The notes beneath the pieces were generated by a model. It was not told where the DNA came from. It did no database searches and was given only the letters and a program-made list of their open reading frames with translations. From the IMG/VR virus record IMGVR_UViG_2639762987_000002: DNA of 64,000 bases; one strand, given 5' to 3'. This document shows positions 15,512 to 47,813 of this stretch, one piece after another (position 1 is the first letter of the stretch; every line of letters starts with the position of its first letter). The position numbers were made by a program, and so were the translations under genes. This DNA is from a virus. Its lineage: Duplodnaviria > Heunggongvirae > Uroviricota > Caudoviricetes.

Positions 15512-15567
15512 CCTGCTTCTGTATATATAAATAATAAGTAACTTATTAAATATATACGGAAGCAGGC
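15512..15567. repeat. 56-bp near-perfect palindrome, copy A
   Basis: cctgcttctgtatatataaataataagtaacttattaaatatatacggaagcagg; a second copy differing at one position lies at 47759-47813. Confidence 0.85.
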
Positions 15568-15682
15568 TTAGTAAGACATGCCAGACCTAATTAAACACCC
15601 CAGAAAACAAGTTGGTTAGCAGATGCAGTAAACAAGTTGTTTTAGAGCGCATGGACGCGCTCTGTGTGTTTTAGAGGGATCT

Positions 15683-16315
15683 ATGACGGTCGAAAAAGAC
15701 GAGGTAAAAACTCGCCTGACACCAGCGGAGTGGGCCGAAGCTGAAGCCAAATGGACGTCAGGCGAATATACACTCTCAAAGCTGGAGGAAGAGTACGGCA
15801 TTCGTCGTGAAACACTCTCCAGACATTTCAAAAAGCGAGGATTAGAGAAAGGCGCGGACTCTGTTGGGAAGATGGTTCGTGAGTCTCTTAAATCTGACGC
15901 AGAGCTTCGCGCTAAAGCCCGTGCGGAAAAGATAGAAGAACGTCGTACACGTTATGACGGCTGGGCGTATGCGTTGGGGCAGATGGTGATGGTCGAAGTC
16001 ACTACGGCCAAACGTGAGGGTAAGCCTTTAGGGGCGATTGAGGATTCTCTCAAGAGCTTACAGAGAGCCAGTAATACCCTTGCAAAATGCTTTGAAGTTT
16101 CGTCCAAAGCATTGGGCATGGATCATGCGGAAAATGACGAGGAAGAAATTCCGAACCTGGTATTTGGTGAGCTTACGCCTTCCCAGGTGGCGAAATTACG
16201 TCAGGAAGACGACGAGCCTGAAATCATCGATGACGAATTGCTTGAGACGTTGGAAGAAGAAGCTCTAAGCGAATTTGATGCGACAGATGATGGAAGTGAA
16301 GGGGAGGACGAATAA
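15683..16315 (+). CDS. terminase small subunit (210 aa)
   Basis: N-terminal HTH-like EYGIRRETLSRHFKKRG, acidic C-terminus, immediately upstream of the large terminase. Confidence 0.6.
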   Translation: MTVEKDEVKTRLTPAEWAEAEAKWTSGEYTLSKLEEEYGIRRETLSRHFKKRGLEKGADSVGKMVRESLKSDAELRAKARAEKIEERRTRYDGWAYALGQMVMVEVTTAKREGKPLGAIEDSLKSLQRASNTLAKCFEVSSKALGMDHAENDEEEIPNLVFGELTPSQVAKLRQEDDEPEIIDDELLETLEEEALSEFDATDDGSEGEDE

Positions 16316-17571
16316 TGGCAATCCCGTCCTCGCTCAGTCTTGTGCAACTGCATTCTGGACAGATGAAAGTCTTCCAGTCTCCGCATCGATTTAAAGTTGT
16401 TTGTGCTGGTCGACGCTGGGGAAAATCCCGGTTGTCGATCTCCACTATTATTCGTGCGGCGGCAAAGGAAAAAAAGCAAAGGGTCTGGTATGTCGCTCCT
16501 ACTTACCAGATGGCTCGCCAGATTTTGTGGGACGATCTACAGGAAGTTCTGCCTCGTAAGTGGGTTAGGAAAAAGAACGACACCACGATGACAATCGTGT
16601 TGAAGAACGGTTCGGAGATCGCCCTCAAAGGTGCTGATAAGCCTGACACTCTGCGCGGCGTAGCGTTGCATTTTGTAGTGCTTGATGAATTTCAGGATAT
16701 GAAGGCTGACACCTGGTACAAGGTGTTACGACCTACTCTTTCATCGACACGCGGCGGTGCACTGATCATTGGTACGCCAAAAGGCTTCTCGGAATTTCAC
16801 AAACTGTGGACTATAGGCCAGAACGTAGAGCTGCAAAGAAAGGGACAGTGGAAGAGCTGGCAGTTTGTAACTGCCGATTCTCCGTTTGTGCCTACGGCGG
16901 AAATTGAAGCTGCTAAGAACGATATGGACCCGAAATCGTTCGCTCAGGAGTACCTGGCGAGCTTTGAGAACATGTCCGGGCGCGTTTACTACCCGTTCGA
17001 TCGTAACGTGCATGTAAAACCGCTTCAGTTCAACCCTCGGTTGCCTATATGGGTAGGGCAGGACTTCAACATTGACCCGATGTCTTCAGTAATTTTGCAA
17101 CCTCAGCCAAATGGTGAGCTATGGGCAATTGATGAATTGGTGCTCTTTTCCTCTAACACGGCAGAGGTTTGTGATGAGCTTGAGAGACGCTTCTGGCGCT
17201 GGAAATCACAGATAACGGTATTTCCAGATCCGGCAGGTGCTTATCGCCAACATGCTCGCGGGGAGTCTGACGTCGACATATTCAAAGAGAAGGGATTCTT
17301 ACGTGTCGATTATTCGAAAAAGCACCCGCCAATTGCGGATCGTGTTAATGCTGTTAACCGAATGCTGATGACCGCATCTGGAGATATCCGGTTGTATATC
17401 GATCCGAAGTGCAAGCATTTGATTGATTCACTGGAAAAAGTCATCTACAAGCCTGGAACACGAGATATGGATAAGACAGGTGGCATTGAGCATAGTGCAG
17501 ACGCATTGGGCTATCCAGTACATCGTAGGTATCCAGTCAAAAACCGTGTTATTCTTGGTGGTTCTCGATAG
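16315..17571 (+). CDS. terminase large subunit (418 aa)
   Basis: Walker A-like VVCAGRRWGKS and Walker B VVLDEF; position before portal. Confidence 0.75.
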   Translation: MAIPSSLSLVQLHSGQMKVFQSPHRFKVVCAGRRWGKSRLSISTIIRAAAKEKKQRVWYVAPTYQMARQILWDDLQEVLPRKWVRKKNDTTMTIVLKNGSEIALKGADKPDTLRGVALHFVVLDEFQDMKADTWYKVLRPTLSSTRGGALIIGTPKGFSEFHKLWTIGQNVELQRKGQWKSWQFVTADSPFVPTAEIEAAKNDMDPKSFAQEYLASFENMSGRVYYPFDRNVHVKPLQFNPRLPIWVGQDFNIDPMSSVILQPQPNGELWAIDELVLFSSNTAEVCDELERRFWRWKSQITVFPDPAGAYRQHARGESDVDIFKEKGFLRVDYSKKHPPIADRVNAVNRMLMTASGDIRLYIDPKCKHLIDSLEKVIYKPGTRDMDKTGGIEHSADALGYPVHRRYPVKNRVILGGSR

Positions 17572-17597
17572 GTAAGTAATTATCTAAGGTTATTCAA

Positions 17598-19172
17598 ATG
17601 GAATTGAACGACAAACAAATTAAGGATCTGGTGGCGCGACGCCACCCGGAATACGAAAAGAAAAAAGAACATTGGGACTTCCTCGCCAGCACTTACGCTG
17701 GCGGGCGTGGTTGGTTTACAGACAATATCTTTCGTTACTTTAAAGAGGGAGATCAGGAGTTTAAGGAGCGAGTTGAGCGTGCTTATCGCTTCAACCACAC
17801 TCGTGAGGTGGTAAACCTCATCAACAAATATCTCTTTAAAGAAGACATTCATAGAAATATCGAAGAGGCACCAGAGCAGATCCGCAATTTCTGGAAACGT
17901 GCGACTCGCCAGAATGCCTCTATTGACTCATTTATGGCCGCTATTGATTTGCAGTCGTCTATTTACGGTCGCATATGGGTTGTTGTCGATAGCACGATGA
18001 GTGGTGATGTTGAGTCAGTAGCTGACGAGAAAAAGAAAGATGCTCGCGCCTACGCCTACTGGATTTCACCTCAGCAAATGCTGGATGTGGCATGGGACGA
18101 CGACGGGAATATGTTGTGGGCGTTAATTGTGGAAGTCGCTCGTGATGACGCAGATCCTTTTACTTCTACAGGTCAGGAATACCAACGTTATCGTCTGTGG
18201 ACACAAAACGAGTGGTATCTGTTCCGTGAGGAAGTGAAGAAGGGCGCTGGTGGAGCAGGTCGCCGTCAGGCTAAAGTTATTTTAGAGGATAGCGGTGAGC
18301 ATAATCTCGGCGTAGTTCCTGTGTTTCCTGTTGATTGTATTGGAGAAAGTGAATCACCGTATTTCAGCCCATCGTTGATCGATGATATCGCTTATCTTGA
18401 TCGTGCGGTTGCAAACTATCTGTCAAACCTTGATGCCATTATTCAGGATCAGACATTTAGCCAGTTGGCTATACCGGTACAGTCGCTTTTACCTGGTGAT
18501 GAAAACCACACTAAAGTGCTTGAAATGGGCACAAAGCGAGTCTTCACCTACGATTCTGAAGGTGGAAACCAGCCGTTTTATCTGTCACCAGACCCGAAAC
18601 AAGCTCAGATGATCATCACTACGATTAAGACGGTGATTAACGAAATCTACCATTCAGTTGGTGTAGCTGGTGAGCGAACGAAGCAGGACAACGCACAGGG
18701 AATCGATAATTCATCTGGTGCCGCAAAAATGTATGACTTCCAGCGTGTAAATAGCTTGCTTGTCACAAAAGCAGAGCGTCTGGAAAGGGCTGAACGCCAA
18801 ATCATGCTACTGGTTGCGAAATGGATGGGGGCAGATCTGGACGAAGACCACTCTTTAATTGCGTATCCAGAAAGTTTCGATATTCGTGGCCTTACTGATG
18901 AATTTTCTGTTGCCGAGAAACTGTCATTACTTCAGGCACCGGACTCTGTACGTCGTCACCAGATGGAAATGCTTATTGAGAAGATTTTCCCGAACATTAC
19001 TGAGGCGATGAAAAAGGAATTTGATAAAGATCTCTTGAATTTTCCTCCAAAAAATGATCTAAATACCCTTGAAAATAAGTCAGTACTTACTTATGATCGT
19101 GGTGCAGCCCAAGAAAGCGGGCAAGATCAACCCCGAGGGAATGGGGACTCATCTACTCAAGAGAACGAGTGA
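17598..19172 (+). CDS. portal protein (524 aa)
   Basis: Size and position between terminase and scaffold; motif-2 upstream. Confidence 0.65.
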   Translation: MELNDKQIKDLVARRHPEYEKKKEHWDFLASTYAGGRGWFTDNIFRYFKEGDQEFKERVERAYRFNHTREVVNLINKYLFKEDIHRNIEEAPEQIRNFWKRATRQNASIDSFMAAIDLQSSIYGRIWVVVDSTMSGDVESVADEKKKDARAYAYWISPQQMLDVAWDDDGNMLWALIVEVARDDADPFTSTGQEYQRYRLWTQNEWYLFREEVKKGAGGAGRRQAKVILEDSGEHNLGVVPVFPVDCIGESESPYFSPSLIDDIAYLDRAVANYLSNLDAIIQDQTFSQLAIPVQSLLPGDENHTKVLEMGTKRVFTYDSEGGNQPFYLSPDPKQAQMIITTIKTVINEIYHSVGVAGERTKQDNAQGIDNSSGAAKMYDFQRVNSLLVTKAERLERAERQIMLLVAKWMGADLDEDHSLIAYPESFDIRGLTDEFSVAEKLSLLQAPDSVRRHQMEMLIEKIFPNITEAMKKEFDKDLLNFPPKNDLNTLENKSVLTYDRGAAQESGQDQPRGNGDSSTQENE

Positions 19173-19193
19173 TAAGTAACAAAAGGAATTTTT

Positions 19194-20081
19194 ATGAATC
19201 TGTGGCAAATGCTTTTGGCCCGTCGTGGTCTGATGGATGTCGCTGAAGCGCATGAGCGTGGAGGCGCTGGCGGTGTAGCTGCTGATAATGAGCAGAGTAC
19301 ACAAGATCCTGACAAACAGGGTGAACAAAAAGAGCAGCCGAAGGGCGATGACGAATACGCTGGCATGACTCAGGAAGAGTTACTGGCCGAACTTCGTAAA
19401 ACCAAGAAAGCTGGTGCTGAACTGCTGAAGGAGAACATGAAGCGCAAAGAGAAAGAGCGCACATTGGCCGATCAGCTTGCTCAGTACGGTGATATCGATC
19501 CGGCTCGTGCTCGCCAGCTTTTAGAAGCTGAACAGGCCGCAGAAAACGCACGTCGTGAGGCGGAGCAAGCTGAACTGGAGCGTCGTGGTGAGTTCGATGC
19601 TGTTAAAAAACAGATGATCGAAGCACACCAGGCAGAGCTGGCACAGCGTGACGAACGTTATGCAGCACTGGAAAGTGAAAACGCATCACTGAAATCTCAA
19701 TTAGTCGAGATGACCGTGGGCGCTTCCTTCAGTAACTCTCTCTTCCTACGTGACAAAGTTCTGATGACCCCGGCAAAAGCCCGCGTGATCTACGGTTCTC
19801 ATTTTGAAGTGGGTGAAGACGGTAGCGTAGTGGGTTATGACAAACCGGCAGGTCATAAAGAACGAGCTGTTCTGGTTGACGGTGAAGGTAAGCCGTTGCC
19901 GTTTGAATCCGCGATTGAACGCATTGTGCGGGCAGATCCGGAAGCTGACGCATTGATGCGTAGCGAAGCCAAGCAGGGTGTAGGCTCACATTCCAAATCG
20001 ACCTACACAATATCCCAACCGAAGAACAAGTCGACTATGGATAAGTTGGCCTCCGGTCTGGGGAAAATTGGACTTAAGTAA
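19194..20081 (+). CDS. scaffolding protein (295 aa)
   Basis: Highly charged, predicted coiled-coil, directly upstream of the capsid gene. Confidence 0.6.
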   Translation: MNLWQMLLARRGLMDVAEAHERGGAGGVAADNEQSTQDPDKQGEQKEQPKGDDEYAGMTQEELLAELRKTKKAGAELLKENMKRKEKERTLADQLAQYGDIDPARARQLLEAEQAAENARREAEQAELERRGEFDAVKKQMIEAHQAELAQRDERYAALESENASLKSQLVEMTVGASFSNSLFLRDKVLMTPAKARVIYGSHFEVGEDGSVVGYDKPAGHKERAVLVDGEGKPLPFESAIERIVRADPEADALMRSEAKQGVGSHSKSTYTISQPKNKSTMDKLASGLGKIGLK

Positions 20082-20106
20082 CATCTAAATCAAAGGGAAT
20101 TGATAG

Positions 20107-20982
20107 ATGCCATTACTGCGTGAAGAAGCTGAAAAGCTGTCTAACAACGAACTTGAACAGGGTGTGATCGAAACTATCATCGATCGCGATGACCTGTTTG
20201 CCATCCTGCCTTTTATGAAAATTAATTCAAAGGCATATCTGTACAACCGTGAAAAAACGCTGAGTGAAGCTACCTTCATCGACGTTAACGACACCATCCC
20301 TGAAGGTGCAGCAACCTTCGAAGAATGCGTTGCGAAACTGCGTATTCTGGCTGGTGACGTAGACGTTGATAAATTCCTGGCGACCACTATGGCCGACACC
20401 AACAACCAGTTGGCTATTCAGGTTCGTCAGAAAGTTAAAGGTCTGGCTCGTGCGTTCCGTCGCAACCTGATTTTGGGTGACTCCAGCTCCAACAACAAGG
20501 CGTTTGACGGCATTCCACGCCTGATGCACGCAGATCAGAAGATCGATATCGCCGGTGCATCTATGACTTTCTCTATGTTCGACGAACTGGTCGATGCGGT
20601 GAAAGATCTTGGTGCTGACTGCATCATGATGCGTTCAGAGCACCTGCGTGCTTACCGTGCGCTGCTGCGTACAGTAAACGTAGGTCCGTCTGAAATCATG
20701 ATGGAGAACTTCGGTCGTCCGATGCTGTGTCATAACGGCGTTCCGTTCATCATCAACGACTTCATCCCGACCGATTCTGGCAAAGCAAGCATCTACTGCC
20801 TGCATCTGTCAGAAGAGAACGGCGTTACTGGTCTGTATGGCGGCGACAACGCAGGTATCGTTGTTGAAAACATTGGTACTGTACAGAACAAAGACGCAGT
20901 ACGTACCCGTGTGAAGTGGTACTGCTCTCTGGCGAATAAGCACGATAAGGCTATCGCTGCACTGACCAATGTAAAAATTTAA
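20107..20982 (+). CDS. major capsid protein (291 aa)
   Basis: Position after scaffold, typical size, strong terminator downstream. Confidence 0.65.
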   Translation: MPLLREEAEKLSNNELEQGVIETIIDRDDLFAILPFMKINSKAYLYNREKTLSEATFIDVNDTIPEGAATFEECVAKLRILAGDVDVDKFLATTMADTNNQLAIQVRQKVKGLARAFRRNLILGDSSSNNKAFDGIPRLMHADQKIDIAGASMTFSMFDELVDAVKDLGADCIMMRSEHLRAYRALLRTVNVGPSEIMMENFGRPMLCHNGVPFIINDFIPTDSGKASIYCLHLSEENGVTGLYGGDNAGIVVENIGTVQNKDAVRTRVKWYCSLANKHDKAIAALTNVKI

Positions 20983-21016
20983 TCAGTGTAGTAGATAAGT
21001 AGTTATCTATGTTAAA

Positions 21017-21043
21017 GGGTGGGCTATACGCCCACCCTTTTTG
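21017..21043 (+). terminator. Rho-independent terminator
   Basis: Hairpin gggtgggctatacgcccaccc followed by ttttt. Confidence 0.8.
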
Positions 21044-21055: not shown

Positions 21056-21976
21056 ATGCCAGAACAAAAGATGAAGATTACGGAAGAGGCATTTTCGGAT
21101 TTTACGGGGCATATGTGCCGTGCCGGATTTACCAATTCTATCTCCGATGAACCTTTAACCGAGCGGCAACAAAGTCAGCTATCTGCTTGTTTGCAGGCGG
21201 TTCCCCTCTCCCAATCCGTAAACATAACCCCGGCTTCACCGTCAGTTTTGGTTGGGAAAACTGTTCAACTTAGTGCAGGTATTAGTATGGGTAAGAGTGC
21301 CAGTTCATTCACCTGGAAGTCAGCCAATGACCAAATTGCAACCGTTAACGGCACTGGATTAGTAACTGGCGTAGCCCCAGGCAAAGTAAAAATTACTGCA
21401 ACTGATCAGGAAACCCAGCTTTCCGCTTCAGTGGAAGTCACCGTAAATCCGGTAGCCGTTCAATCCGTAACGGTAACGCCAGACTCAACCTCTGTTGAGA
21501 AAGGAAAATCAGTCAGTCTGAAAGCGAATGTTCAGCCGTCAAATGCGACGAATAAGGCTGTTACCTGGTCTTCCAAAAATGAAGATAAGGCAACGGTAGA
21601 CCAGAGCGGGAACGTAACTGGTGTAGAAGTTGGCACTGCGACGATTGAGATCGTTTCCCAAGATGGTAGCAAAAAGGCAACTGCAACGGTGGAAGTAACT
21701 GCGCCTGTTGTGGCTGTTACCGGCGTCGAAATCGGCCCAAATAGCACAACCGTTGAGGCAAACAAAACTGTTCAGCTGACAGCAAATGTCGAGCCGGCAG
21801 GAGCCACAAATAAAACCGTTACTTGGGAATCTAAAAATACCGAGTTTGCAACGGTTGACAGCGAAACCGGTGTTGTAACTGGTGTTGCGGCTGGTACTGC
21901 CACAATCGAGGTTACTACCCAAGATGGTAGCCACAAAGCGACAGCGACCGTACAAGTCACTGCTGCACAGGAATAA
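21056..21976 (+). CDS. Ig-like (Big_2-type) repeat protein, likely head decoration (306 aa)
   Basis: Three repeats of the pattern KAVTWSSKN...ATV...GTATIEIVSQDGSKKATATVEVTA. Confidence 0.6.
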   Translation: MPEQKMKITEEAFSDFTGHMCRAGFTNSISDEPLTERQQSQLSACLQAVPLSQSVNITPASPSVLVGKTVQLSAGISMGKSASSFTWKSANDQIATVNGTGLVTGVAPGKVKITATDQETQLSASVEVTVNPVAVQSVTVTPDSTSVEKGKSVSLKANVQPSNATNKAVTWSSKNEDKATVDQSGNVTGVEVGTATIEIVSQDGSKKATATVEVTAPVVAVTGVEIGPNSTTVEANKTVQLTANVEPAGATNKTVTWESKNTEFATVDSETGVVTGVAAGTATIEVTTQDGSHKATATVQVTAAQE

Positions 21977-38046: not shown

Positions 38047-41000
38047 ATGTGGTACAGGGAAGGTACTATCACATTTACACAGGGCAGCAATACTCTGGTT
38101 GGGGCAGGTACAGCCTGGAACGTAACAGCTAATGGTGTGTTGCCGGGGATGATCGTCATTGGCCCCGACAATAAGCTGTATGAGATCAAGCGCGTAACCA
38201 GTGATACGAACATTGTTCTCTCAGAACCTTATACCGGCGAAACTCAGTCTGAAGTTCCGTGCCGAATCATTACGACCTATGAAGGCGACTTAACACAGTT
38301 TAGCGCGCGCTTTACAGCACTAATGTCGCGTATGTCGGCTGATTCCAAGTCCATGCGCAGTTGGTTGACTGCTCTGGATGAGGTGACAATCGAGCGTGAA
38401 GACGGTACAGAAGTGACCGTTAAGCCGCTAATGCAGATCGTCAACGAGCACAACGAAAACGTTGAGTGGTATAAAAATAACACTGACGCGATTGATGCTG
38501 CTGGCGACAAAGCTCGTGAGGCGGCGGCCAGTGCTGCCGCAGCAGCAAAAAGCGCCAATGCCGCTGGAGAAAAAGCCTCTCAAGCGTCTCAAAGTGCATC
38601 CGCTGCGGCATCCTCACAAAGTGCCGCAAGTGCGAGTGCAACTGCTGCGAAAAAATCTGAAACGAATGCTGCAGCGTCACAAAAATCTGCAGCCACTTCT
38701 GCATCCACCGCGACCACGAAGGCGTCAGAAGCTGCCACCTCAGCCCGGGATGCGGCGGCCTCAAAAGAGGCAGCAAAATCATCAGAAACGAGCGCAGCCT
38801 CGAGCGCCAGTAATGCCGCTTCCTCGGCAACGGCGGCTGGAAATTCCGCGAAGGCGGCAAAAACGTCCGAGACGAACGCCAGGTCTTCTGAAACGGCAGC
38901 GGGACAGAGCGCCTCGGCTGCGGCAGGCTCAAAAACAGCGGCTGCGTCGTCTGCCAGTGCCGCGTCAACAAGTGCCGGGCAGGCCTCAGCCAGTGCCACC
39001 GCCGCCGGAAAATCGGCAGAAAGTGCCGCATCGTCTGCTTCAACGGCCACAACGAAGGCTGGCGAAGCCACTGAACAGGCCAGCGCAGCAGCGAGGTCTG
39101 CTTCCGCAGCGAAGACATCCGAAACGAACGCGAAAGCGTCGGAAACCCGTGCAGAATCCTCAAAAACGGCAGCCGCATCGTCCGCCAGTTCGGCAGCGTC
39201 ATCGGCATCATCTGCGTCTGCTTCAAAAGATGAGGCGACCAGACAGGCGTCAGCAGCGAAGGGCAGCGCCACGACGGCATCCACGAAAGCAACAGAGGCG
39301 GCAGGCAGTGCGACGGCTGCATCTCAGAGCAAAACTGCTGCCGAATCTGCTGCGACTCGTGCAGAAGCTGCCGCTGATCGTGCTGAAGAGATTGCCGGTG
39401 CAGTTGCGATGGAAGACGCAAGCCTTACAACTAAAGGTGTTGTGAAACTTAGCAGTGCTGTCGATAGCACCAGTGAATCGCTGGCTGCAACGCCAAAGGC
39501 AGTTAAAACTGTTAAAGATAGTTCAGTTCAAAAAACTGGCGACACAATGGGAGGGCAGTTAAAAATCGGCACGATAAATGCTCTTCGAATATTCAACCAA
39601 GCCTTTGGCCTTATTTTTAGGCGTTCCGAAGATTATATTCATCTTATCCCGACTAATGAAGGGGAGGGAGAAAATGGAGACATCGGTTCATTAAGACCAT
39701 TCTCTATAAACTTAAGATCAGGGTTGGTGTCCATCGGTAATGGACTAAAAGTTGGTGGTAGTGTTACTGGTAATTTGACCGGAAACGCAGATACTGCGAC
39801 CAAGATCAAGACAGCACGTAAGATTGGGGGCGTGGCATTTGATGGATCGGCAGATATCAACTTGCCTGGAGTCAACGCTACCGGTAATCAAAACACTACA
39901 GGTAATGCTGCGACCGCCACGAAACTTCAGGCAGCCAGAACGATTAACGGTGTGTCATTTGATGGTAGTGCAAATATCACATTGACCCCTTCAAATATTG
40001 GGGCGTTGGCATTAACTGGAGGGACTCTTTCAGGTGGTTTAACTGCTGCTGGTGAGATTATTTCAAAGTCAGCAAATGGTCTGCGTATTGCCTATGGCAA
40101 CTATGGATTCTTTATCCGAAATGATGGCTCAAATACATATTTTATGTTGACAGATTCGGGTAACAGTCTTGGTACGTACAATAGCTTAAGGCCGTTTATA
40201 ATTAGTAACTCTACTGGCAATGTTACAATTGCAACTAAATTAAACGCGAGTAGTGGTATCACTGGATCTTTATCGGGTAATGCAAGCACAGCAACCAAAT
40301 TGCAGACAGCAAGAACCATCGGTGGTGTTAGCTTCGATGGCACTGCGAATATTAATTTGCCTGGTGTTAATGCTGCCGGTAATCAGAACACTACCGGTAA
40401 CGCGGCCACAGCGACCAAGTTGCAAACAGCTAGAACTATTAACGGGGTGTCGTTTAACGGCTCTGCGAATATTTCAATACCAACAATTACGTCCAGAGGG
40501 CGCGTTACTGCGCTCACCGGTACAACACAAGGTGCTGCGACTGGATTGCAGATGTACGAGGCATATAACAATGGCTACCCTTCGTCTTACGGGAATGTGC
40601 TTCATCTTAAGGGCGCAACGGCCGTTGGTGAAGGTGAGTTGTTCATAGGTTGGAGCGGTACAAGTGGTGCTCATGCACCTGTACATGTACGTTCGCGACG
40701 AGATACGGATACATCCAGTTGGTCTGAATGGGCGCAAGTTTATACGTCCAAAGACTCAATTCCAGGTGTCAATGCCACCGGTAATCAGAACACTACTGGC
40801 AACGCAGCCTCTGCAACGAAGTTGCAGACAGCCAGAACAATTGGAGGTGTGTCGTTTAATGGCACCGCCAATATTAACTTGCCGGGTGTTAATATAGCGG
40901 GTAATCAGAATACGACTGGTAACGCAGCTTCAGCCACGAAGTTACAAACGGCTCGTACTATCGGTGGTGTTAGTTTTAACGGCACAGCCAATATTAACTT

Positions 41001-41571
41001 ACCTGGTGTGAATACGACCGGTAATCAGAACACTACTGGTAATGCTGCAACCGCCACAAAATTGCAGACAGCAAGGAAAATTGCTGGTGTGGCGTTTGAT
41101 GGCTCTGCCGATATAACTTTGACTGCGGCTAACCTTAATGCTTATACGAAAACAGAGGTAACAAACCTTCTCAGTTCCTATGTGAAGAGTAGTTCTCTTC
41201 CAAGCATGACTGTGCGAACTTCCTCTGTTTCTGGTGGGGATATGGGCATGAGTTTGTCCACATTCATTAGCCACCTTAAATCAAATGGGGCATTTAGCAA
41301 AAGTTATTGGATTGGCTTTGGCGATGCTATGGGATTCAATGCTGGCAGTATCAACAATATAACGGGATTTGGTGCTGTAGAATTAGCAGAATCTATAATC
41401 GAAGTTTTTAATCTACCTAACGGTGATTATACAATTCGTTTAACAACGTCACATAAAGCTGACTACGGTGGAGTGACAAACGCAATCCTCGTTTATCACT
41501 ACCGTAGTAATAGAAGTCCGTCAGGTCAATGGCTGAAATTTGCCGGTACTGTTGGGGCAACAAGCAACTGA
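38047..41571 (+). CDS. side tail fibre protein (1174 aa)
   Basis: Ala/Ser-rich low-complexity segment with KTSETNA repeats, then ~7 copies of GNQNTTGNAATATKLQTARTIGGVSFDG phage tail-fibre repeats. Confidence 0.8.
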   Translation: MWYREGTITFTQGSNTLVGAGTAWNVTANGVLPGMIVIGPDNKLYEIKRVTSDTNIVLSEPYTGETQSEVPCRIITTYEGDLTQFSARFTALMSRMSADSKSMRSWLTALDEVTIEREDGTEVTVKPLMQIVNEHNENVEWYKNNTDAIDAAGDKAREAAASAAAAAKSANAAGEKASQASQSASAAASSQSAASASATAAKKSETNAAASQKSAATSASTATTKASEAATSARDAAASKEAAKSSETSAASSASNAASSATAAGNSAKAAKTSETNARSSETAAGQSASAAAGSKTAAASSASAASTSAGQASASATAAGKSAESAASSASTATTKAGEATEQASAAARSASAAKTSETNAKASETRAESSKTAAASSASSAASSASSASASKDEATRQASAAKGSATTASTKATEAAGSATAASQSKTAAESAATRAEAAADRAEEIAGAVAMEDASLTTKGVVKLSSAVDSTSESLAATPKAVKTVKDSSVQKTGDTMGGQLKIGTINALRIFNQAFGLIFRRSEDYIHLIPTNEGEGENGDIGSLRPFSINLRSGLVSIGNGLKVGGSVTGNLTGNADTATKIKTARKIGGVAFDGSADINLPGVNATGNQNTTGNAATATKLQAARTINGVSFDGSANITLTPSNIGALALTGGTLSGGLTAAGEIISKSANGLRIAYGNYGFFIRNDGSNTYFMLTDSGNSLGTYNSLRPFIISNSTGNVTIATKLNASSGITGSLSGNASTATKLQTARTIGGVSFDGTANINLPGVNAAGNQNTTGNAATATKLQTARTINGVSFNGSANISIPTITSRGRVTALTGTTQGAATGLQMYEAYNNGYPSSYGNVLHLKGATAVGEGELFIGWSGTSGAHAPVHVRSRRDTDTSSWSEWAQVYTSKDSIPGVNATGNQNTTGNAASATKLQTARTIGGVSFNGTANINLPGVNIAGNQNTTGNAASATKLQTARTIGGVSFNGTANINLPGVNTTGNQNTTGNAATATKLQTARKIAGVAFDGSADITLTAANLNAYTKTEVTNLLSSYVKSSSLPSMTVRTSSVSGGDMGMSLSTFISHLKSNGAFSKSYWIGFGDAMGFNAGSINNITGFGAVELAESIIEVFNLPNGDYTIRLTTSHKADYGGVTNAILVYHYRSNRSPSGQWLKFAGTVGATSN

Positions 41572-42524: not shown

Positions 42525-42534
42525 TGAGTAAACG

Positions 42535-42765: not shown

Positions 42766-42846
42766 TAAGTAAGTACACACCTACAACAAAAGGGTGAAAT
42801 GTGATATAAATCCGCCATCCCGATTTGACTTTTCATGGAGGAAAAC

Positions 42847-43170: not shown

Positions 43171-43183
43171 CAGGAGATCAAGG

Positions 43184-43876
43184 ATGAAGACTCCGAGAGG
43201 CATTCGTAATAATAACCCCGGTAATCTTGATAAAGGATCACCGTGGCAAGGTCTGGTTGCGAATCCAGGCGAACCGCGCTTTTGCACGTTTAAAGACCCT
43301 GTTTGGGGAATTCGTGCGCTGGCGGTGACTCTAATTACCTACCACGACAAACGTCGCGCAAAAGACGGCTCAAGTATCGATACCATTCGTGAAGTTATTG
43401 AACGTTGGGCACCGCCGAATGAAAACAATACTGACGCCTACATTAATGAGGTGTCTAAAGCCGTTGGTGTAACCGCAGACATGATCATCGATCTGCATGA
43501 TTACGACATCCTTCGACCTTTGGTTGAGGCAATCATTCGCCACGAGAATGGCCGAGGCCCGCTAAAAACGCTGAACACCTGGTATGCGGCAGAAGTAATT
43601 GAGGAAGGTCTGCGTCGAGCTGGCGTTGTTAAGCCGGTGAAAACCGTGAAGGCTGTTCCTGTAACTAAAGAAACCGCAGGCGCAACTGTTACAGCAGGTA
43701 TTGGTCTGGCGCAGCTGGCCGATGTTATGCCGCAGGTTTCCGCTGCTATGGATAAAGCACAAGGTCATATCTCTAGCGGGGATACAGTACGCATCATCTT
43801 CGGTATTGCCACTATTGTTGTGGCAGGATTCATTGCCTGGTCGCAGGTAAGAAAACACCAGAAAGGGATGGTCTAA
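43184..43876 (+). CDS. putative endolysin / cell-wall hydrolase with C-terminal membrane anchor (230 aa)
   Basis: Position between holin-like and spanin-like genes; conserved-looking RNNNPGNL motif; C-terminal hydrophobic helix; family not assigned. Confidence 0.4.
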   Translation: MKTPRGIRNNNPGNLDKGSPWQGLVANPGEPRFCTFKDPVWGIRALAVTLITYHDKRRAKDGSSIDTIREVIERWAPPNENNTDAYINEVSKAVGVTADMIIDLHDYDILRPLVEAIIRHENGRGPLKTLNTWYAAEVIEEGLRRAGVVKPVKTVKAVPVTKETAGATVTAGIGLAQLADVMPQVSAAMDKAQGHISSGDTVRIIFGIATIVVAGFIAWSQVRKHQKGMV

Positions 43877-43877
43877 T

Positions 43878-44129
43878 ATGCTAGGCAGCCTGATGACAAA
43901 GCTAAAAGTTGCTTTGATTACGCTGGCTGCCGTTCTTTTCGTTCTTGTCGGCGCTTACACGATGGGCGGGAATGCGGCGCGACGAGCAATGGAAGAGAAG
44001 GCAAAACAGGAAGACAGAAAACGACTTCAAAGCACAGTGGATGTCAAAAATGAAACGGTTAATGAAGTGCGGCAAAAAGATGCCTCTGGTGTTCATCGCG
44101 AGCTGTTTGATAAATGGGTGCGTGATTAA
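43878..44129 (+). CDS. i-spanin, Rz-like (83 aa)
   Basis: N-terminal TM helix then charged coiled-coil periplasmic domain. Confidence 0.55.
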   Translation: MLGSLMTKLKVALITLAAVLFVLVGAYTMGGNAARRAMEEKAKQEDRKRLQSTVDVKNETVNEVRQKDASGVHRELFDKWVRD

Positions 44130-44286
44130 GACGCAGGCTCCAGGCGTGCTATTCTGCGATGCTGCAAATCCTATTTATGTGAGTAGAGAGGATTTTATGA
44201 CTGAGGAAACGGAGCGACAGTTGCTTATCCACAATACGATAGGTGAAAGGCTGTGTGAGTGGGGGGCACCTGAACTGAGTCGATGA
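44041..44286 (+). CDS. putative o-spanin, Rz1-like lipoprotein, overlapping Rz in another frame
   Basis: Within the listed ORF 43945..44286: KRLMKCGKKMPLVFIASC gives a lipobox (IASC); start codon uncertain (44041, 44050 or 44062). Confidence 0.4.
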   Translation: MSKMKRLMKCGKKMPLVFIASCLINGCVIKTQAPGVLFCDAANPIYVSREDFMTEETERQLLIHNTIGERLCEWGAPELSR

Positions 44287-44502
44287 TTGATGAGTGGTCT
44301 CAGTTTACCTTTTATCCTAAAGATGGCATCTTCACTCATATACACGCCTGTTCACTCAAGCTCATGTTGAATCATTTAGTAATTTGATGTAGATTTATTA
44401 GGCATCCACGTAAGTGGGCACATACAGGCTACGCATCCTCGTAGCCTTCAACCCCGAGAGGGGTGCCGCAATGACACTTGTGTTAACGGCTAAGGTGGAC
44501 AC

Positions 44503-44886
44503 ATGCTGAACGAGAAACGTTCTATACAAACTATTCGCGATTGCACGAGTATTATCGAGACTCATGTGCTGAATCAGCACAAGCTTGAAGTACGTAAGCT
44601 CAATAATGACGCTATTGAACCGGAAGACTCACGCTTCATCGTTACCTTCAAAGACGATGTTGAGCGCGCTGGTGCAAGCGTGAAGCCATTAGCTGAAGCA
44701 ATTTACCTGAATGGTCGTGTTCGTTTTGTAGTCAAGCCAGCTAAACAGTACCCTGAGCTGTCTCGTTTTATCGAGGCTTTTTCGGAGGTTATTGAACATT
44801 CTATTCGCCGCTTCTTACGCAATCATGGTAGCATTGTCAGCACGGTTAAGGCTGATGATTCTGCTACAAAATGGCTCCTACACTAG
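44503..44886 (+). CDS. hypothetical protein (127 aa)
   Basis: ORF with RBS aaggtgg. Confidence 0.55.
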   Translation: MLNEKRSIQTIRDCTSIIETHVLNQHKLEVRKLNNDAIEPEDSRFIVTFKDDVERAGASVKPLAEAIYLNGRVRFVVKPAKQYPELSRFIEAFSEVIEHSIRRFLRNHGSIVSTVKADDSATKWLLH

Positions 44887-45623
44887 ATAGCGCATATTCA
44901 AAAGATCTAAGCGAGTTTCCTCATAAAGGGGAGACTCGTGTTGTTCGTTTTGGCTTTCTTATCAATGAAGCCTCCCTCTATAAAATCTCAGAAATTGAAA
45001 TCATTGAACCAGAAGATGACATTTGCCTGTATGTCTCTATGGAACTTGTAGGTGCGCGCGACCAAGGCGACCTGAGCGAATTCATCTTAGATCGAGCGGA
45101 TGAAGATGCCCCTGAAGAAGAGATTATCAAAGAGGTGCTCCAGTCCGGGCTTCTGGACGAAAACAAAAATACGATCGCTGGTAGGATAGCTCTGCGTGAA
45201 TATAGTTTTGTTGAAGACGGTAATGAGATCGAATGTTACCAGGTAGCCGGTGTCGAAACTGTCAGAGAGCGTCGTCAGCGAGGATTGTGTCACCGTACCT
45301 ATCTCTTTCTTCTTCATTGGTATGAGCATTTAGTCTGCGACGATACACAAACCATTCCTGGTGCTAAGATCTGGGCAGGGCCTCTCATGCGAACCGGCGA
45401 TGTGCGTATATACAATGCCAAAACAGAAACGTTCGAGGATGTGTTAGGTGAGTACGGGATGGGGAAAGAAACCGGATTTTTGCCGTGGAACAGAGGATTG
45501 TTGCTTGATGCAGAGTTAAGCTCTTGGCTCCCAAACAAAGTGCAAGTTAACGTTCAGAAATTTATCGTACTTATCATCTCCCGCAAAACAAGAACTCCAG
45601 TAGGTTTATACCTAAAAGATTAA
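44871..45623 (+). CDS. hypothetical protein (250 aa)
   Basis: ORF overlapping the upstream gene by 16 nt. Confidence 0.55.
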   Translation: MAPTLDSAYSKDLSEFPHKGETRVVRFGFLINEASLYKISEIEIIEPEDDICLYVSMELVGARDQGDLSEFILDRADEDAPEEEIIKEVLQSGLLDENKNTIAGRIALREYSFVEDGNEIECYQVAGVETVRERRQRGLCHRTYLFLLHWYEHLVCDDTQTIPGAKIWAGPLMRTGDVRIYNAKTETFEDVLGEYGMGKETGFLPWNRGLLLDAELSSWLPNKVQVNVQKFIVLIISRKTRTPVGLYLKD

Positions 45624-45628
45624 AAATC

Positions 45629-45652
45629 AGGCGACTTTGGTCGCCTTTTTTG
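45629..45652 (+). terminator. Rho-independent terminator
   Basis: Hairpin ggcgactttggtcgcc followed by tttttt. Confidence 0.8.
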
Positions 45653-45799
45653 TTAACAGCCATTGATTCTCGCCTAAAAATTCTAAGGCAGCACCTACCA
45701 TTTAACCTTTACACCACAGCCGTAGGCATTTAGGCTATATCACATATAAGAAAACAAGTTGTTTCAGACGATAATTATATACGCAAAGGGAACTCTCCA

Positions 45800-46468
45800 A
45801 TGACCAAGATCTTTGTGGTTGGCGGCACAAAGGGCGGGCCTGGCAAATCCACCGTTGCCCAGCAAATTGCCGTTTGCCTGAAAGTCAAAAAGAAGAAGAA
45901 GGTTTATATCACTGATATAGATATTCAGCGCACGACAACAAGCTGGTGTGAAGACCGTCGACAGAACGAAGACCTTGAGCTGATTCCTTTTGCATACGTT
46001 CAGGATGACATCATTAAGCACCTAAAATCGCTTCAGGGTAGAGCTGAGTTTGTAGTGGTAGATGCTGGTGGCTTCGACTCCGAAATTCAGCGACAAGCGA
46101 TGCTGATGGCTGACGTTATCATTATCCCGCTGCGTCCTAAGCGTCGTGATTTGAAATCTTTACGTGACATCGATCCTATTATCGACAATGTTCGCAATGT
46201 AAACGATAAAGTGAAGGTCCGCGCGGTCATGAACCAGTGCCCGGCTTTGCCATCACAAGTGTCTCGCATTCTGGCGGCTAAAGAGATTGTTGAGACGTTT
46301 GGCATCGAGTCTGCGCCAGTCAATCTATATAACCGCAACGTCTATGATGATGCGGAAGAGTCTGGTCGTTCTATCTTTGAAATGACCGGTAGCGAGCGCG
46401 ACAAAAAGGCGGAAGCCGAGTTTGAAGAATTTGTAGATTATCTGTTGAGTCTGGAGGAAGAAGAATAA
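45800..46468 (+). CDS. parA: ParA/ParF-type partition ATPase (222 aa)
   Basis: Deviant Walker A GGTKGGPGKST; followed by a small RHH protein; motif-1 upstream. Confidence 0.8.
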   Translation: MTKIFVVGGTKGGPGKSTVAQQIAVCLKVKKKKKVYITDIDIQRTTTSWCEDRRQNEDLELIPFAYVQDDIIKHLKSLQGRAEFVVVDAGGFDSEIQRQAMLMADVIIIPLRPKRRDLKSLRDIDPIIDNVRNVNDKVKVRAVMNQCPALPSQVSRILAAKEIVETFGIESAPVNLYNRNVYDDAEESGRSIFEMTGSERDKKAEAEFEEFVDYLLSLEEEE

Positions 46469-46827
46469 TGTCCATGAAAATGGGTGACCTAGCAAAGCGC
46501 AAAGAGCCTGATGCACCGGCTAAGAACACAACTCCTTTGCGCCAACCAGTCAGACCACAGGGACGCCCGACTCGTGGCAAAGAGAAAATTAAAAGCCGCA
46601 CAATGTCACTGGAGGACGAATACTTCGAACTGCTGGAGATGATGAAGTTCATCCCTCGCTTCGAGAAGTTCACTCGTTCTGACGTGATTCGAGCAGCCAT
46701 TTTCCATCTGGCAGAGAAGTCACCGCAGGAAATCGAGGACATCGTGAAATTGAATGAGGCGATCACCGCTGCCGATGTCACGATGCGTACCGATGAAATT
46801 AAACGAGAGTTGATGAAGAAAGGTTAA
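46468..46827 (+). CDS. ParG-like ribbon-helix-helix centromere-binding protein (119 aa)
   Basis: C-terminal RHH-like segment, basic disordered N-terminus, start overlaps parA stop. Confidence 0.65.
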   Translation: MSMKMGDLAKRKEPDAPAKNTTPLRQPVRPQGRPTRGKEKIKSRTMSLEDEYFELLEMMKFIPRFEKFTRSDVIRAAIFHLAEKSPQEIEDIVKLNEAITAADVTMRTDEIKRELMKKG

Positions 46828-46828
46828 A

Positions 46829-46868
46829 AGTTATGCATTGGCGCAATGTACGCGCCAATGCATAACTA
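46829..46868. terminator. Perfect 15-bp-arm inverted repeat, probable bidirectional terminator
   Basis: gttatgcattggcgc aatgtac gcgccaatgcataac between convergent genes. Confidence 0.55.
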
Positions 46869-46879
46869 CAGTGTCAGCT

Positions 46880-47647
46880 TTATGCCGCGCTAACACTATG
46901 TTCAGTCCTAACCACCCCAACCTTCACAAAAGGGCTACCGTAGCTTGGTGGCTTCTTGATTAATTTGCCTACATACAGTTTTCTAATATGCTCATCGGCT
47001 ATTCTGCCAACAAATTCATAACGTTTTGTGTCGGGGCCAAGAGCTATATCCCTTGTAAAGTACTGCTGAGAACCGGCTTTGACCCAGCATTCAATCTGAT
47101 AAACTTCCATTATCAGCCCACCATATGTAGCGTAGGCATATTTGAGATTCTCGTCTCTTGGAACCTTTGCCCATACGCCACGCGTAGCTTCATATAATGC
47201 CAGAGCGGACATTCCTGACTTGTAGGTGCTGTTTAGCAGGAAGGCAAGACCGGCGTGCTCAGGAGCAATTTCAGTTTCCTCTTGCAGCACTAAGTGATGG
47301 TAGGCGTCCAGTGATATTCTGCCCATCATGGAACCACTTCCTCGTACCTTATTCGTAAGCTCTCCGACCCCCATAAGGTCGATGCATGTCGCCTCAACAA
47401 GTTTGGCTGTGGTTTCATCCATACCATGACGAAGTATATCTATGCCTAATTTTTTATTAGCCAAAAGTTCTTTGATCCGCATGGATTTGGGAGAGTCATC
47501 GGGATACTTGATGTGATCGAGACAACGAGTCGATTTGCCTTTTCCTATGTAAAACGGTCTTTTCATCTTGTCTTCTGTATCATAGAGACAGTAAACATAG
47601 TATTTAGCCTTATCCAATGATCTCGCGTATACCGATAAATCGTCCAT
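46880..47647 (-). CDS. GIY-YIG domain protein, free-standing endonuclease-like (255 aa)
   Basis: N-terminal YVYCLYD...(11 aa)...FYIGKGK fits the GIY-(x9-11)-YIG motif; lone minus-strand gene between large palindromes. Confidence 0.6.
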   Translation of the reverse strand: MDDLSVYARSLDKAKYYVYCLYDTEDKMKRPFYIGKGKSTRCLDHIKYPDDSPKSMRIKELLANKKLGIDILRHGMDETTAKLVEATCIDLMGVGELTNKVRGSGSMMGRISLDAYHHLVLQEETEIAPEHAGLAFLLNSTYKSGMSALALYEATRGVWAKVPRDENLKYAYATYGGLIMEVYQIECWVKAGSQQYFTRDIALGPDTKRYEFVGRIADEHIRKLYVGKLIKKPPSYGSPFVKVGVVRTEHSVSAA

Positions 47648-47758
47648 TATTGCATCTCTTTGCTACTGACTAATGCGTTCTATTTTACACATAAGTTTTT
47701 AATCAATTTAACAGGCTCAAAGTGTAGAGCTTCTGGGCGTCTAAGACGACAAGTTATG

Positions 47759-47813
47759 CCTGTTTCTGTATATATAAATAATAAGTAACTTATTAAATAT
47801 ATACGGAAGCAGG
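47759..47813. repeat. 55-bp near-perfect palindrome, copy B
   Basis: cctgtttctgtatatataaataataagtaacttattaaatatatacggaagcagg; one difference from copy A. Confidence 0.85.

What the first reader, a model, noticed from the sequence alone, without database searches (positions are those of the whole stretch)
15512..47813. Two near-identical ~55-bp palindromes bracket the packaging-to-partition module
Copy A (15512-15567) and copy B (47759-47813) differ at one position. Each is a long imperfect palindrome with 17-bp outer arms around a motif-2-like centre. A sits just upstream of TerS and B just upstream of the replication module. Such long palindromes can form cruciforms and may be recombination or packaging sites, strong regulatory operators, or module-boundary elements.
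Basis: seen in the sequence. Interest (0 to 1): 0.6.

Follow-up and report, generated by a model that had tools for sequence, protein, structure and literature searches.

The report
Conserved boundary hairpins of SSU5-type phage-plasmids
The two near-identical 55-base palindromes are real, belong to a whole family of phage-plasmids, and most likely act as transcription stop or insulator hairpins at the borders between gene modules, which is a useful but fairly ordinary kind of element.

Summary
Copy A (15512-15566) and copy B (47759-47813) differ at one base, lie in the same orientation, and are the only two copies in the window.

The window is an SSU5/pLF82-type phage-plasmid of E. coli. The palindrome is not a host repeat: it occurs in 260 of 5426 complete E. 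coli genomes, and 1046 of 1048 places are on plasmids. It is present at both positions in all E. coli, Salmonella and Klebsiella lineages sampled, and some elements carry a third copy.

The 14-nt outer arms are the most conserved part (93-98% pairwise identity). The AT-rich centre varies in sequence and in length (23-29 nt). More distant relatives keep the arm pairing through compensatory changes. This fits a folded strand better than a fixed-spacing protein operator.

Site B carries a conserved T-run after the stem and G·U-type asymmetry on the + strand. In published RNA-seq of the close relative Cyrano, transcript level falls from log2 5.7-10.4 to 2.3-4.2 across it. B also bounds a variable cargo slot.

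Best reading: B is an intrinsic terminator or insulator protecting the phage replication operon. A is a paralogue without the T-run, extended by its flanks, and its role is less certain. No A/B recombinant junctions were found. An origin, cruciform or packaging role is not excluded.

The parts
15512..15566 (+). Palindrome copy A: 17-nt arms (one T·G), 21-nt AT-only centre with an inner 7-bp stem
   Evidence: present upstream of terS in all 47 unique TerS-anchored relatives that could be read
15490..15587 (+). Flank-extended dyad around copy A (GGTCTGG...CCAGACC plus inner flanks). It lengthens the hairpin to about 98 nt (RNA -48.9 kcal/mol, z -8.7).
   Evidence: In all 37 A variants the flanks pair more than shuffled flanks do (27 vs 16 pairs, mean z -4.0). 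Compensatory pairs in alignment A1.
47759..47813 (+). Palindrome copy B, one base different from A (T at position 5, giving a second T·G)
   Evidence: present upstream of the 246-aa gene in all 62 unique Rep-anchored relatives
47814..47821 (+). T-run TCTTTTAA directly after the stem of B (the U-tract of a terminator)
   Evidence: 41 of 44 B variants have at least 5 T in the 8 nt after the stem, mean 5.3, against about 3 for A
15221..15487 (+). 88-aa gene that ends 25 nt before copy A (weak winged-helix regulator similarity; phrog_900)
15683..16315 (+). TerS-like DNA-binding protein gene, starting 117 nt after copy A; followed by TerL (16315-17571)
   Evidence: annotation of Cyrano and SSU5
15643..15674 (+). 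Second, conventional hairpin plus T-run between copy A and the terS ribosome-binding site
   Evidence: the stem is conserved in SSU5 and Klebsiella relatives, with a compensatory change in L323
45800..46827 (+). Partition operon: ParA (MipZ-type) and a 119-aa partner upstream of the cargo slot
46880..47647 (-). Cargo gene (LEM-3-like GIY-YIG domain) in the variable slot immediately left of copy B
   Evidence: RefSeq name; unrelated genes occupy this slot in SSU5 and Cyrano
47930..51317 (+). Phage replication operon downstream of copy B: 246-aa protein of unknown function, DnaB-like helicase, primase
47857..47885 (+). Possible sigma-70 promoter of the replication operon (TTCCAA-17-TATCAT), read by eye and not called by the scan tool; followed by a motif-2 site at 47898-47916
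   Evidence: sequence; conserved block; one search found no consensus promoter, so this part is inference

Best explanation
The palindromes are copies of a conserved intergenic stem-loop cassette of SSU5-type phage-plasmids. The cassette works when the + strand is transcribed.

Copy B is an intrinsic (factor-independent) terminator: an unusually long hairpin with a G+C-rich base, followed by a U-tract. It ends transcription coming from the partition/cargo operon, which is expressed in the lysogen. It thereby insulates the silent phage replication operon (246-aa protein, helicase, primase) that starts 117 nt further on. Because B stays with the replication module while the genes to its left are swapped, it also marks a recombination boundary.

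Copy A is a paralogue of the same hairpin placed in front of terS. It has lost the U-tract and gained flank pairing that extends it to about 100 nt. It probably acts as a leaky attenuator or an RNA processing/stability hairpin inside the packaging gene row, rather than as a full stop.

The identity of A and B in this window, including the fast-evolving centre, is best explained by recent gene conversion between the two copies.

Shown: sequence, conservation, pairing pattern, T-run, the transcript drop across B in a close relative, and the variable left flank.
Inferred: termination as the mechanism of that drop, the role of A, and gene conversion.
For: 1. The cassette is family-wide and element-specific. 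It is found in 260 of 5426 E. coli genomes, with 1046 of 1048 places on plasmids. Sites A and B are present in all TerS- and Rep-anchored relatives. A third site, C, lies between a Dam methylase gene and a 75-aa gene in some elements.

2. The evidence fits pairing rather than a fixed protein site.
- Arm spacing varies from 23 to 29 nt.
- Arm changes follow the path C·G, T·G, T·A.
- More distant relatives keep the dyad with compensatory arm changes: CCTGCTTTCGTAT/ATACGAAAGCAGG in L323, and CCTGCTCCCCAT/ATGGGAAGCAGG in Raoultella.
- The flanks of A pair in all 37 variants with lineage-specific sequences.

3. The + strand is favoured.
- 41 of 44 B variants have at least 5 T in the 8 nt after the stem; C has 5.
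- The + strand RNA hairpin is more stable than the - strand one in 24 of 29 B variants.
- In the window the values are -25.9 vs -15.9 kcal/mol.

4. Position. The cassette lies 22-25 nt after the stop codon of a co-directional gene at A (window), at B in SSU5 and at B in Cyrano.

5. In vivo data. In Table S1 of PMC9928086, the gene before B (CYRAN_30) reads log2(fpkm+5) 5.7-10.4. The gene after it (CYRAN_31) reads 2.3-4.2 in all ten samples, for example 10.42 to 2.56. The palindrome is the only hairpin in that 193-nt spacer. Across A the drop is about 0.6-2 log2 units in the eight samples with signal.

6. Calibration. The ordinary hairpin at 15643-15664 shows the same pattern as the arms: stem conserved across lineages, loop free, and a compensatory change in L323.
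Against: - A has no U-tract (about 3 T in 8) and shows no strand bias in stability (10 vs 9 variants). It also carries uncompensated arm mismatches in the Cyrano and Klebsiella lineages. A is therefore not a canonical terminator.
- The hairpin is atypical for a terminator. It is 55 nt long with an almost pure A+T upper part, and in two distant relatives the centre is an unpaired loop of 25-29 nt.
- The extreme A+T content of the centre (87-93% in the true hits tabulated) and the G+C-rich ends are also what a DNA unwinding or cruciform site would need.
- The arms are the same at A, B and C in every close lineage. Raoultella A and B share derived arm features. This calls for either gene conversion or a sequence-specific factor.
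- The RNA-seq values are per gene, come from a relative (Cyrano) whose B centre differs, and do not map 3' ends.
- In the window itself the gene next to B is on the opposite strand, so B would stop only read-through from parAB.
Confidence: 0.55

Rival explanations
1. DNA-level melting or cruciform site used in phage replication. The conserved arms would be binding sites for an element-encoded initiator, possibly the 246-aa protein encoded next to B. They would flank an easily unwound A+T centre, giving two or three lytic origins per genome. This is the logic of HSV oriS/oriL or the two distant origins of phage SPP1 (own knowledge, not tested here).
For: - The centre is 87-93% A+T in the true hits tabulated, with (TA)n tracts that vary by slippage.
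- The arms are the most conserved part (0.93-0.98) and are the same at all sites.
- B lies directly upstream of the 246-aa/helicase/primase genes.
- Raoultella A and B share derived arm variants.
Against: - A and C are not next to replication genes.
- The T-run and the G·U asymmetry are strand-specific, which a double-stranded site does not predict.
- Variable spacing between arms.
- pMT1 keeps A but lacks the replication module.
- No GC-skew change at A or B, although skew here follows gene direction and is uninformative.
- No initiator family could be assigned to the 246-aa protein.
Confidence: 0.17
2. Copy A is the packaging recognition or cleavage site (cos or pac) used by the TerS/TerL encoded just downstream. 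B and C would be non-functional or secondary look-alikes.
For: - A lies 117 nt upstream of terS, the usual place for cos or pac.
- The linear SSU5 record is cut inside A (...CTTATTA|AATATATACGG).
- A alone has the extended outer dyad.
- pMT1 keeps A together with the packaging genes.
Against: - The Cyrano record start only copies SSU5; it is plasmid pLF82 re-ordered.
- A start chosen anywhere in the 195-nt spacer would fall in the palindrome about 28% of the time.
- B is as well conserved as A in every lineage, so it is not a tolerated look-alike.
- The TerL relatives (25-27% identity) include both headful-type and terminal-repeat phages, so no cos prediction is possible.
- Metagenomic contigs do not end at A.
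Confidence: 0.1
3. Binding site of a sequence-specific element-encoded protein that acts on transcription. It could be a roadblock like the mycobacteriophage 'stoperators', or an antiterminator target that switches the terS and replication operons on together during lytic growth.
For: - Identical arms at two or three sites, each about 107-122 nt upstream of the first gene of an operon. Both distances are exactly 117 nt in the window.
- B segregates with the downstream module.
- An 88-aa winged-helix-like protein is encoded next to A.
Against: - Spacing between half-sites varies by 6 nt.
- Compensatory arm changes fit pairing.
- The centres of A and B are freely mixed between elements, so there is no matched specificity.
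- No candidate protein was tested.
Confidence: 0.12
4. Site-specific or homologous recombination sites whose crossing-over excises or exchanges the 32-kb packaging-to-partition segment.
For: The copies are direct repeats of 55 bp. The left border of B is a recombination junction between lineages. The identical centres of A and B in this lineage imply exchange between the copies.
Against: - 0 of 257-261 E. coli genomes carry an A-left/B-right or B-left/A-right junction, and none was seen among the IMG/VR loci.
- The architecture does not match tyrosine or serine recombinase core sites.
- The integrase gene lies about 10 kb away.
Confidence: 0.04

Closest known systems
Rho-independent (intrinsic) transcription terminators, including phage terminators that double as processing sites (lambda tI/sib)
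   Same: The RNA hairpin has a G+C-rich base, followed at B and C by a U-tract on the transcribed strand. It lies 22-25 nt after a stop codon. Transcript level drops strongly across B in vivo. The stem evolves through wobble intermediates and compensatory changes.
   Different: The hairpin is much longer than usual (55 nt, up to about 100 nt at A) and has an almost pure A+T upper half. The same arm sequence is kept at two or three sites across a whole family. A lacks the U-tract.
PeSL (promoter-early stem-loop) cassettes of T4-type phages (own knowledge; Arbiol, Comeau and Krisch 2010)
   Same: A repeated intergenic stem-loop sits next to a promoter-like region at the borders of variable genes, associated with modular shuffling. 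This element also encodes T4-like recombination proteins (UvsY, gp32-like, RecA/UvsX-like).
   Different: There are only two or three copies per genome rather than dozens. The sequence is unrelated. Circle formation between copies was not seen.
Herpes simplex oriS/oriL and SPP1 oriL/oriR type origins (own knowledge)
   Same: A palindrome with conserved arms around an A+T centre, in several copies per genome, one of them next to replication genes.
   Different: No initiator has been identified. The strand-specific T-run and wobble bias are not expected for an origin. Two of the three sites are not near replication genes.
Protelomerase target telRL of N15-type linear phage-plasmids
   Same: A phage-plasmid with a palindrome of about 55 bp.
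   Different: The centre is odd-numbered, bulged and variable. There is no protelomerase gene and the replicons are circular.

Membership tests
Intrinsic (Rho-independent) terminator | Stable stem-loop with a G+C-rich base in the RNA of the transcribed strand | tested here: met
   + strand RNA folds at -27.7 (A) and -25.9 (B) kcal/mol, z about -9.7. The mean over 29 B variants is -22.5 kcal/mol.
Intrinsic (Rho-independent) terminator | U-tract immediately 3' of the stem | tested here: inconclusive
   Met at B (41 of 44 variants have at least 5 T in 8; window TCTTTTAA) and at C (5 of 8). Not met at A (mean 2.95 of 8).
Intrinsic (Rho-independent) terminator | Short loop and compact hairpin | tested here: not met
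   The hairpin is 55 nt with an internal loop. In L321 and L319 the centre is an unpaired stretch of 25-29 nt.
Intrinsic (Rho-independent) terminator | Transcripts end there in vivo | tested here: inconclusive
   Per-gene RNA-seq of the relative Cyrano: 5.7-10.4 before B against 2.3-4.2 after B (log2 fpkm+5) in 10 of 10 samples. The drop across A is about 0.6-2 units in the eight samples with signal. 3' ends are not mapped and the data are not from this element.
cos/pac packaging site | Virion DNA ends or packaging series start at the site | not testable with these tools
   The only hint is that the SSU5 linear record is cut inside A. No read data were available.
cos/pac packaging site | Located next to the terminase genes | tested here: inconclusive
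   A is next to the terminase genes (117 nt upstream of terS). B and C, which are equally conserved, are not.
Protelomerase target (telRL) | Perfect even-length dyad at the centre, a protelomerase gene, and a linear replicon with hairpin ends | tested here: not met
   The centre is odd-numbered with a 3/1 internal loop. No protelomerase appears in the Cyrano annotation. PLSDB and RefSeq records are circular.
Replication origin (initiator sites plus unwinding element) | A+T-rich unwinding region flanked by repeated initiator-binding sites | tested here: inconclusive
   The A+T centre is present (87-93% in the true hits tabulated). Only one inverted pair of arms is present, with no iterons and no identified initiator.
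Replication origin (initiator sites plus unwinding element) | Supports initiation of replication | not testable with these tools
   There is no GC-skew switch at A or B, but skew follows gene direction here.
Dimeric repressor operator | Inverted half-sites at fixed spacing, overlapping a promoter | tested here: not met
   Spacing is 23-29 nt. B ends 43 nt upstream of the nearest candidate -35 hexamer.
Site-specific recombination site pair | Recombinant junctions between copies occur | tested here: not met
   0 of 257 and 0 of 261 E. coli genomes cover at least 80% of either chimeric junction.
Host-wide repetitive extragenic palindrome (REP/BIME) or MITE | Many copies dispersed in host chromosomes | tested here: not met
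   1046 of 1048 places are on plasmids, with 2-3 copies per element. Among 185,579 species genomes, true hits occur only in Kluyvera, Buttiauxella, Y. pestis and one contaminated MAG.

The most novel reading that the evidence does not exclude
The palindrome may be a dual-use cis element recognised in a sequence-specific way by an element-encoded factor. In the lysogen it would fold in RNA as a terminator that silences the packaging and replication operons. After induction, a phage protein binding the invariant arms (as RNA hairpin or as extruded DNA) would either override termination at all copies at once, or use the same A+T-centred palindromes as lytic replication start sites. A single motif would then couple the switch-on of replication and packaging modules across a 100-kb phage-plasmid.
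Probability: 0.15. Interest if true: 0.6.

Novelty: new member of a known kind. Interest (0 to 1): 0.33.

Why it matters
SSU5-type phage-plasmids are common in E. coli, Klebsiella, Salmonella and Enterobacter and include Yersinia pestis pMT1. The A region alone matches 798 PLSDB plasmids, and these elements often carry resistance genes. Very little is known about how they keep lytic genes silent while plasmid genes are expressed.

A conserved insulator hairpin in front of the phage replication genes, and its paralogue in front of terS, gives a concrete and testable piece of that regulation. It also marks the right-hand border of a cargo slot where unrelated genes are swapped, which helps in reading the mosaic structure of these elements.

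A practical point: a repeat of about 55 bp with a (TA)n tract explains why short-read assemblies of these plasmids often break at exactly these two places.

Tried and rejected
- Rfam search of both regions gave only chance microRNA-hairpin matches far below threshold.
- The literature held nothing on SSU5 termini, packaging or these palindromes. The SSU5 genome note and the Gilcrease and Casjens paper were not held.
- The Cyrano record start is not independent evidence for termini, because it is plasmid pLF82 re-ordered to match SSU5.
- TerL relatives are too distant (25-27% identity) and too mixed in packaging type to predict cos or headful packaging.
- The idea that the centres of A and B co-evolve within an element was rejected. 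Centre types are freely mixed between elements, with only occasional conversion.
- The exact T4 late-promoter consensus TATAAATA occurs in the palindrome. It is not conserved in relatives and is not found upstream of late genes.
- Single arms elsewhere in the window: the 10-nt arm core (CTTCYGTATA) occurs nowhere else. The only other matches are five exact copies of the 8-nt outer arm on the - strand inside coding sequence, about the number expected by chance.
- The degenerate two-arm scan of species genomes was too loose. About 45 of the 54 loci were chance matches with G+C-rich or unrelated centres.
- The idea that the gene left of B is an inverted copy of the SSU5 gene was rejected; the proteins are unrelated.
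- GC skew is uninformative here.
- The RNAalifold consensus on the MAFFT alignment recovered only part of the extended A stem, because the alignment is not structure-aware. The per-sequence folding test was used instead.
Full report
**1.

Copy A is at 15512-15566 and copy B at 47759-47813. They differ at one base (position 5, C in A and T in B) and are in the same orientation. A search allowing three mismatches finds only these two sites, against none in 100 shuffles.

Each copy has 17-nt outer arms with a G+C-rich outer part and a (TA)n inner part. A has one T·G mismatch and B has two. The centre is 21 nt of A and T only, apart from one G and one C, with its own 7-bp dyad.

A lies 25 nt after the stop of an 88-aa gene and 117 nt before the start of the TerS-like gene. 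B lies 117 nt before the start (47930) of a 246-aa gene, which is followed by a DnaB-like helicase and a primase.

**2. What the window is**

The window is an SSU5/pLF82-type phage-plasmid of E. coli. It is 99.7% identical over the tested kilobase to 'Escherichia phage CMS-2020a', and close to PhiR41_1 and Cyrano (= pLF82).

In the Cyrano annotation, the genes after B belong to a phage-type replication and recombination set: helicase, primase, ligase, Pol III alpha, UvsY, gp32-like SSB, RecA, SbcCD and RuvC. The plasmid RepA gene lies about 29 kb further on, outside the window. So B precedes the phage replication module, not the plasmid replicon.

**3. It is not a host repeat**

In 5426 complete E. 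coli genomes the palindrome occurs in 260, with 1046 of 1048 places on plasmids. The median of four places equals two copies, because each palindrome matches both strands.

Plasmids identical to the window have exactly two copies, so nothing is hidden in the part of the element outside the window.

A degenerate two-arm scan of one genome per species found true copies only in Kluyvera, Buttiauxella, Yersinia pestis and one contaminated MAG. The rest were chance matches.

**4. Family-wide conservation at fixed positions**

I anchored on the TerS-like protein and on the 246-aa protein in IMG/VR, so that retrieval did not depend on the palindrome.
- Site A was found in all 47 unique upstream regions that could be read.
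- Site B was found in all 62.

Y. pestis pMT1 has A only. Its copy is identical to that of SSU5, and pMT1 lacks the replication module.

Some elements have a third site, C, between a phage Dam methylase gene and a 75-aa gene on the same strand. These are Kluyvera, pYLPI6a and the E. coli plasmids with six BLAST places.

Pairwise identity by part:

| Part | Mean identity |
|---|---|
| Arms | 0.93-0.98 |
| Centre | 0.78-0.89 |
| Right flank | about 0.73 |
| Left flank of A | 0.84 |
| Left flank of B | 0.54 |

The genes to the left of B in the window, SSU5 and Cyrano are unrelated proteins. The window gene is a LEM-3-like GIY-YIG protein on the minus strand. B is therefore the fixed right-hand border of a variable cargo slot and travels with the replication module.

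**5. Pairing or protein site?**

Several results point to intrastrand pairing rather than a rigid double-stranded binding site.
- The distance between the arms varies from 23 to 29 nt, largely through (TA)n slippage.
- Arm variation is concentrated at positions 5, 8 and 9. It follows the path C·G, T·G, T·A.
- More distant relatives keep the dyad with changed sequence. L323 has CCTGCTTTCGTAT/ATACGAAAGCAGG. A Raoultella element has CCTGCTCCCCAT/ATGGGAAGCAGG.
- At site A the flanks extend the hairpin to about 100 nt in all 37 variants: 27 flank pairs against 16 in shuffled flanks, mean z -4.0. The flank sequences are lineage-specific, and compensatory pairs appear in the alignment.
- The ordinary hairpin at 15643-15664 shows the same pattern of conservation, so the constancy of the arms is not by itself exceptional.

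Against a purely structural view:
- The arms are the same at A, B and C in all close lineages.
- Raoultella A and B share derived features.
- In the window lineage A and B are identical even in the fast-evolving centre.

Centre types are freely mixed between elements. Occasional gene conversion is therefore the simplest account, but a sequence-specific factor is not excluded.

**6. Which strand, and which molecule?**

Site B has a conserved T-run directly after the stem on the + strand: TCTTTT, with at least 5 T in 8 nt in 41 of 44 variants. Site C also has it. Site A does not, at about 3 of 8.

The mismatches at B are of the kind that pair as G·U on the + strand and as A·C on the minus strand.
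- The + strand RNA hairpin is the more stable one in 24 of 29 B variants.
- In the window the values are -25.9 against -15.9 kcal/mol.
- Site A shows no such bias (10 against 9).

These are the marks of an intrinsic terminator read in the direction of the genes.

**7. In vivo evidence from a close relative**

Table S1 of the LF82 prophage study (PMC9928086) gives per-gene RNA levels for Cyrano in ten samples, as log2(fpkm+5).

| Genes | Position | Level |
|---|---|---|
| CYRAN_28-30 (partition/cargo operon) | before B | CYRAN_30: 5.7-10.4 |
| CYRAN_31 | 193 nt downstream, after B | 2.3-4.2 |
| CYRAN_123 | before A | 2.9-6.6 |
| CYRAN_1 | after A | 2.7-5.6 |

The floor of the scale is 2.32. In one sample the level falls from 10.42 to 2.56 across B. 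The palindrome with its T-run is the only hairpin in that spacer.

Across A the drop is only about 0.6-2 units. It cannot be assigned to A alone, because a second hairpin with a T-run lies between A and terS.

These values are per gene, come from a relative, and do not map 3' ends. They do show a very efficient stop at the place where B lies.

**8. Interpretation**

B, and probably C, is an unusually long intrinsic terminator. It insulates a lytic operon from transcription of plasmid-maintenance and cargo genes that are active in the lysogen. It belongs to the downstream module, which explains why the DNA to its left is exchangeable.

A is a paralogue in front of terS. It has lost the T-run and gained flank pairing. 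Its role is uncertain: a leaky attenuator, an RNA processing or stability hairpin, or a DNA-level site.

I put 0.55 on this overall account: about 0.7 for B as a terminator and about 0.35 for A having a related RNA-level role.

**9. Rival readings**

*Origin or cruciform reading (0.17).* This is kept alive by the A+T centre, the G+C-rich ends, the position of B next to helicase-primase genes, and the constancy of the arms. It does not explain the strand-specific features or sites A and C.

*Packaging site at A (0.10).* This rests only on its position and on the SSU5 record being cut inside it.
- The Cyrano record copies that start.
- A cut placed anywhere in the spacer would fall in the palindrome about 28% of the time.
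- TerL similarity is uninformative.

*Protein roadblock or antiterminator target (0.12).* This is compatible with the fixed distance of about 117 nt to the downstream start codons. It conflicts with the variable arm spacing.

*Recombination between the two direct copies.* No trace was found: 0 of 257-261 E. coli genomes have either hybrid junction, and none of the IMG/VR loci do.

Telomere-resolution sites, host REP elements and classical operators fail defining features (see the membership table).

**10. Novelty and interest**

I found no description of these palindromes in the searchable literature. No Rfam family matches.

The element is best filed as a new member of a known kind: a conserved, duplicated terminator-type boundary hairpin, comparable in logic to the stem-loop cassettes of T4-type phages.

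It is useful for understanding and annotating a clinically common phage-plasmid family. It would not surprise a specialist unless the factor-dependent or origin reading turns out to be true.

Noticed in passing
window 1663-1677, 1714-1728, 4338-4352, 4822-4836, 5725-5739, 6489-6503, 15604-15618, 15629-15643, 45751-45765, 48681-48695, 60266-60280: A 15-bp palindromic motif, AAAACAAnTTGTTTT, is often preceded by TAATTAAC. It lies about 5-70 nt upstream of at least 11 gene starts, including two copies between palindrome A and terS, one before parA and one before the helicase gene. It looks like a dispersed promoter/operator set, in the manner of the scattered C1 operators of P1.
   Followed up: partly
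One copy lies in the leader of the 246-aa gene after palindrome B. Its function is unknown.
   Followed up: partly
window 15643-15674: A conventional G+C hairpin (GAGCGCATGGACGCGCTC) followed by TGTGTGTTTTAG lies immediately before the terS ribosome-binding site. It is conserved in SSU5 and Klebsiella relatives, with a compensatory change in L323. This suggests an attenuator or antitermination-controlled entry to the late operon.
   Followed up: partly
window 46880-47647 (- strand): A gene for a LEM-3-like GIY-YIG nuclease-domain protein occupies the variable slot left of palindrome B. SSU5 has a DUF2971 gene there and Cyrano has an unrelated 267-aa gene, both on the + strand. A branched-DNA nuclease fold next to a long palindrome may be a coincidence.
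   Followed up: partly
L287, L307, L057, L096, L011 (Kluyvera, E. coli pYLPI6a and IMG/VR contigs): A third copy of the palindrome (site C) lies between a phage Dam methylase gene and a 75-aa gene. It has the same outer GTCTGGG...CCCAGAC flanks as site A, plus a T-run. Neither gene is present in this window.
   Followed up: partly
window 55228-55349 and 56169-56246; tRNAs at 55616-56166: Two inverted repeats with 20-nt arms that share CACARCGTTGAG flank a cluster of four tRNA genes (Asn, Tyr, Thr, Ser). The second begins 3 nt after tRNA-Ser.
   Followed up: no
window 39772-41123 and 21614-21963: Diverged direct repeats lie inside structural genes. Four copies of about 215 nt (64-72% identity to the reference copy) lie in the large gene at 38047-41571. 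Two copies of 89 nt (74%) lie near 21.6-22.0 kb. They are probably repeated protein domains.
   Followed up: no
L181, L194 and other IMG/VR contigs; SSU5 record ends: Several draft-genome contigs begin or end inside palindrome B. The (TA)n tract differs in length between otherwise identical elements. The repeat is thus a frequent assembly break point and a slippage hotspot.
   Followed up: partly
window 12961-15487: The four genes before palindrome A form a conserved block directly upstream of the terminase genes in all relatives: a ParB-like nuclease-domain protein, an ABC-type ATPase, a 296-aa ATPase-like protein and an 88-aa winged-helix-like protein. They may belong to the packaging machinery.
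   Followed up: no
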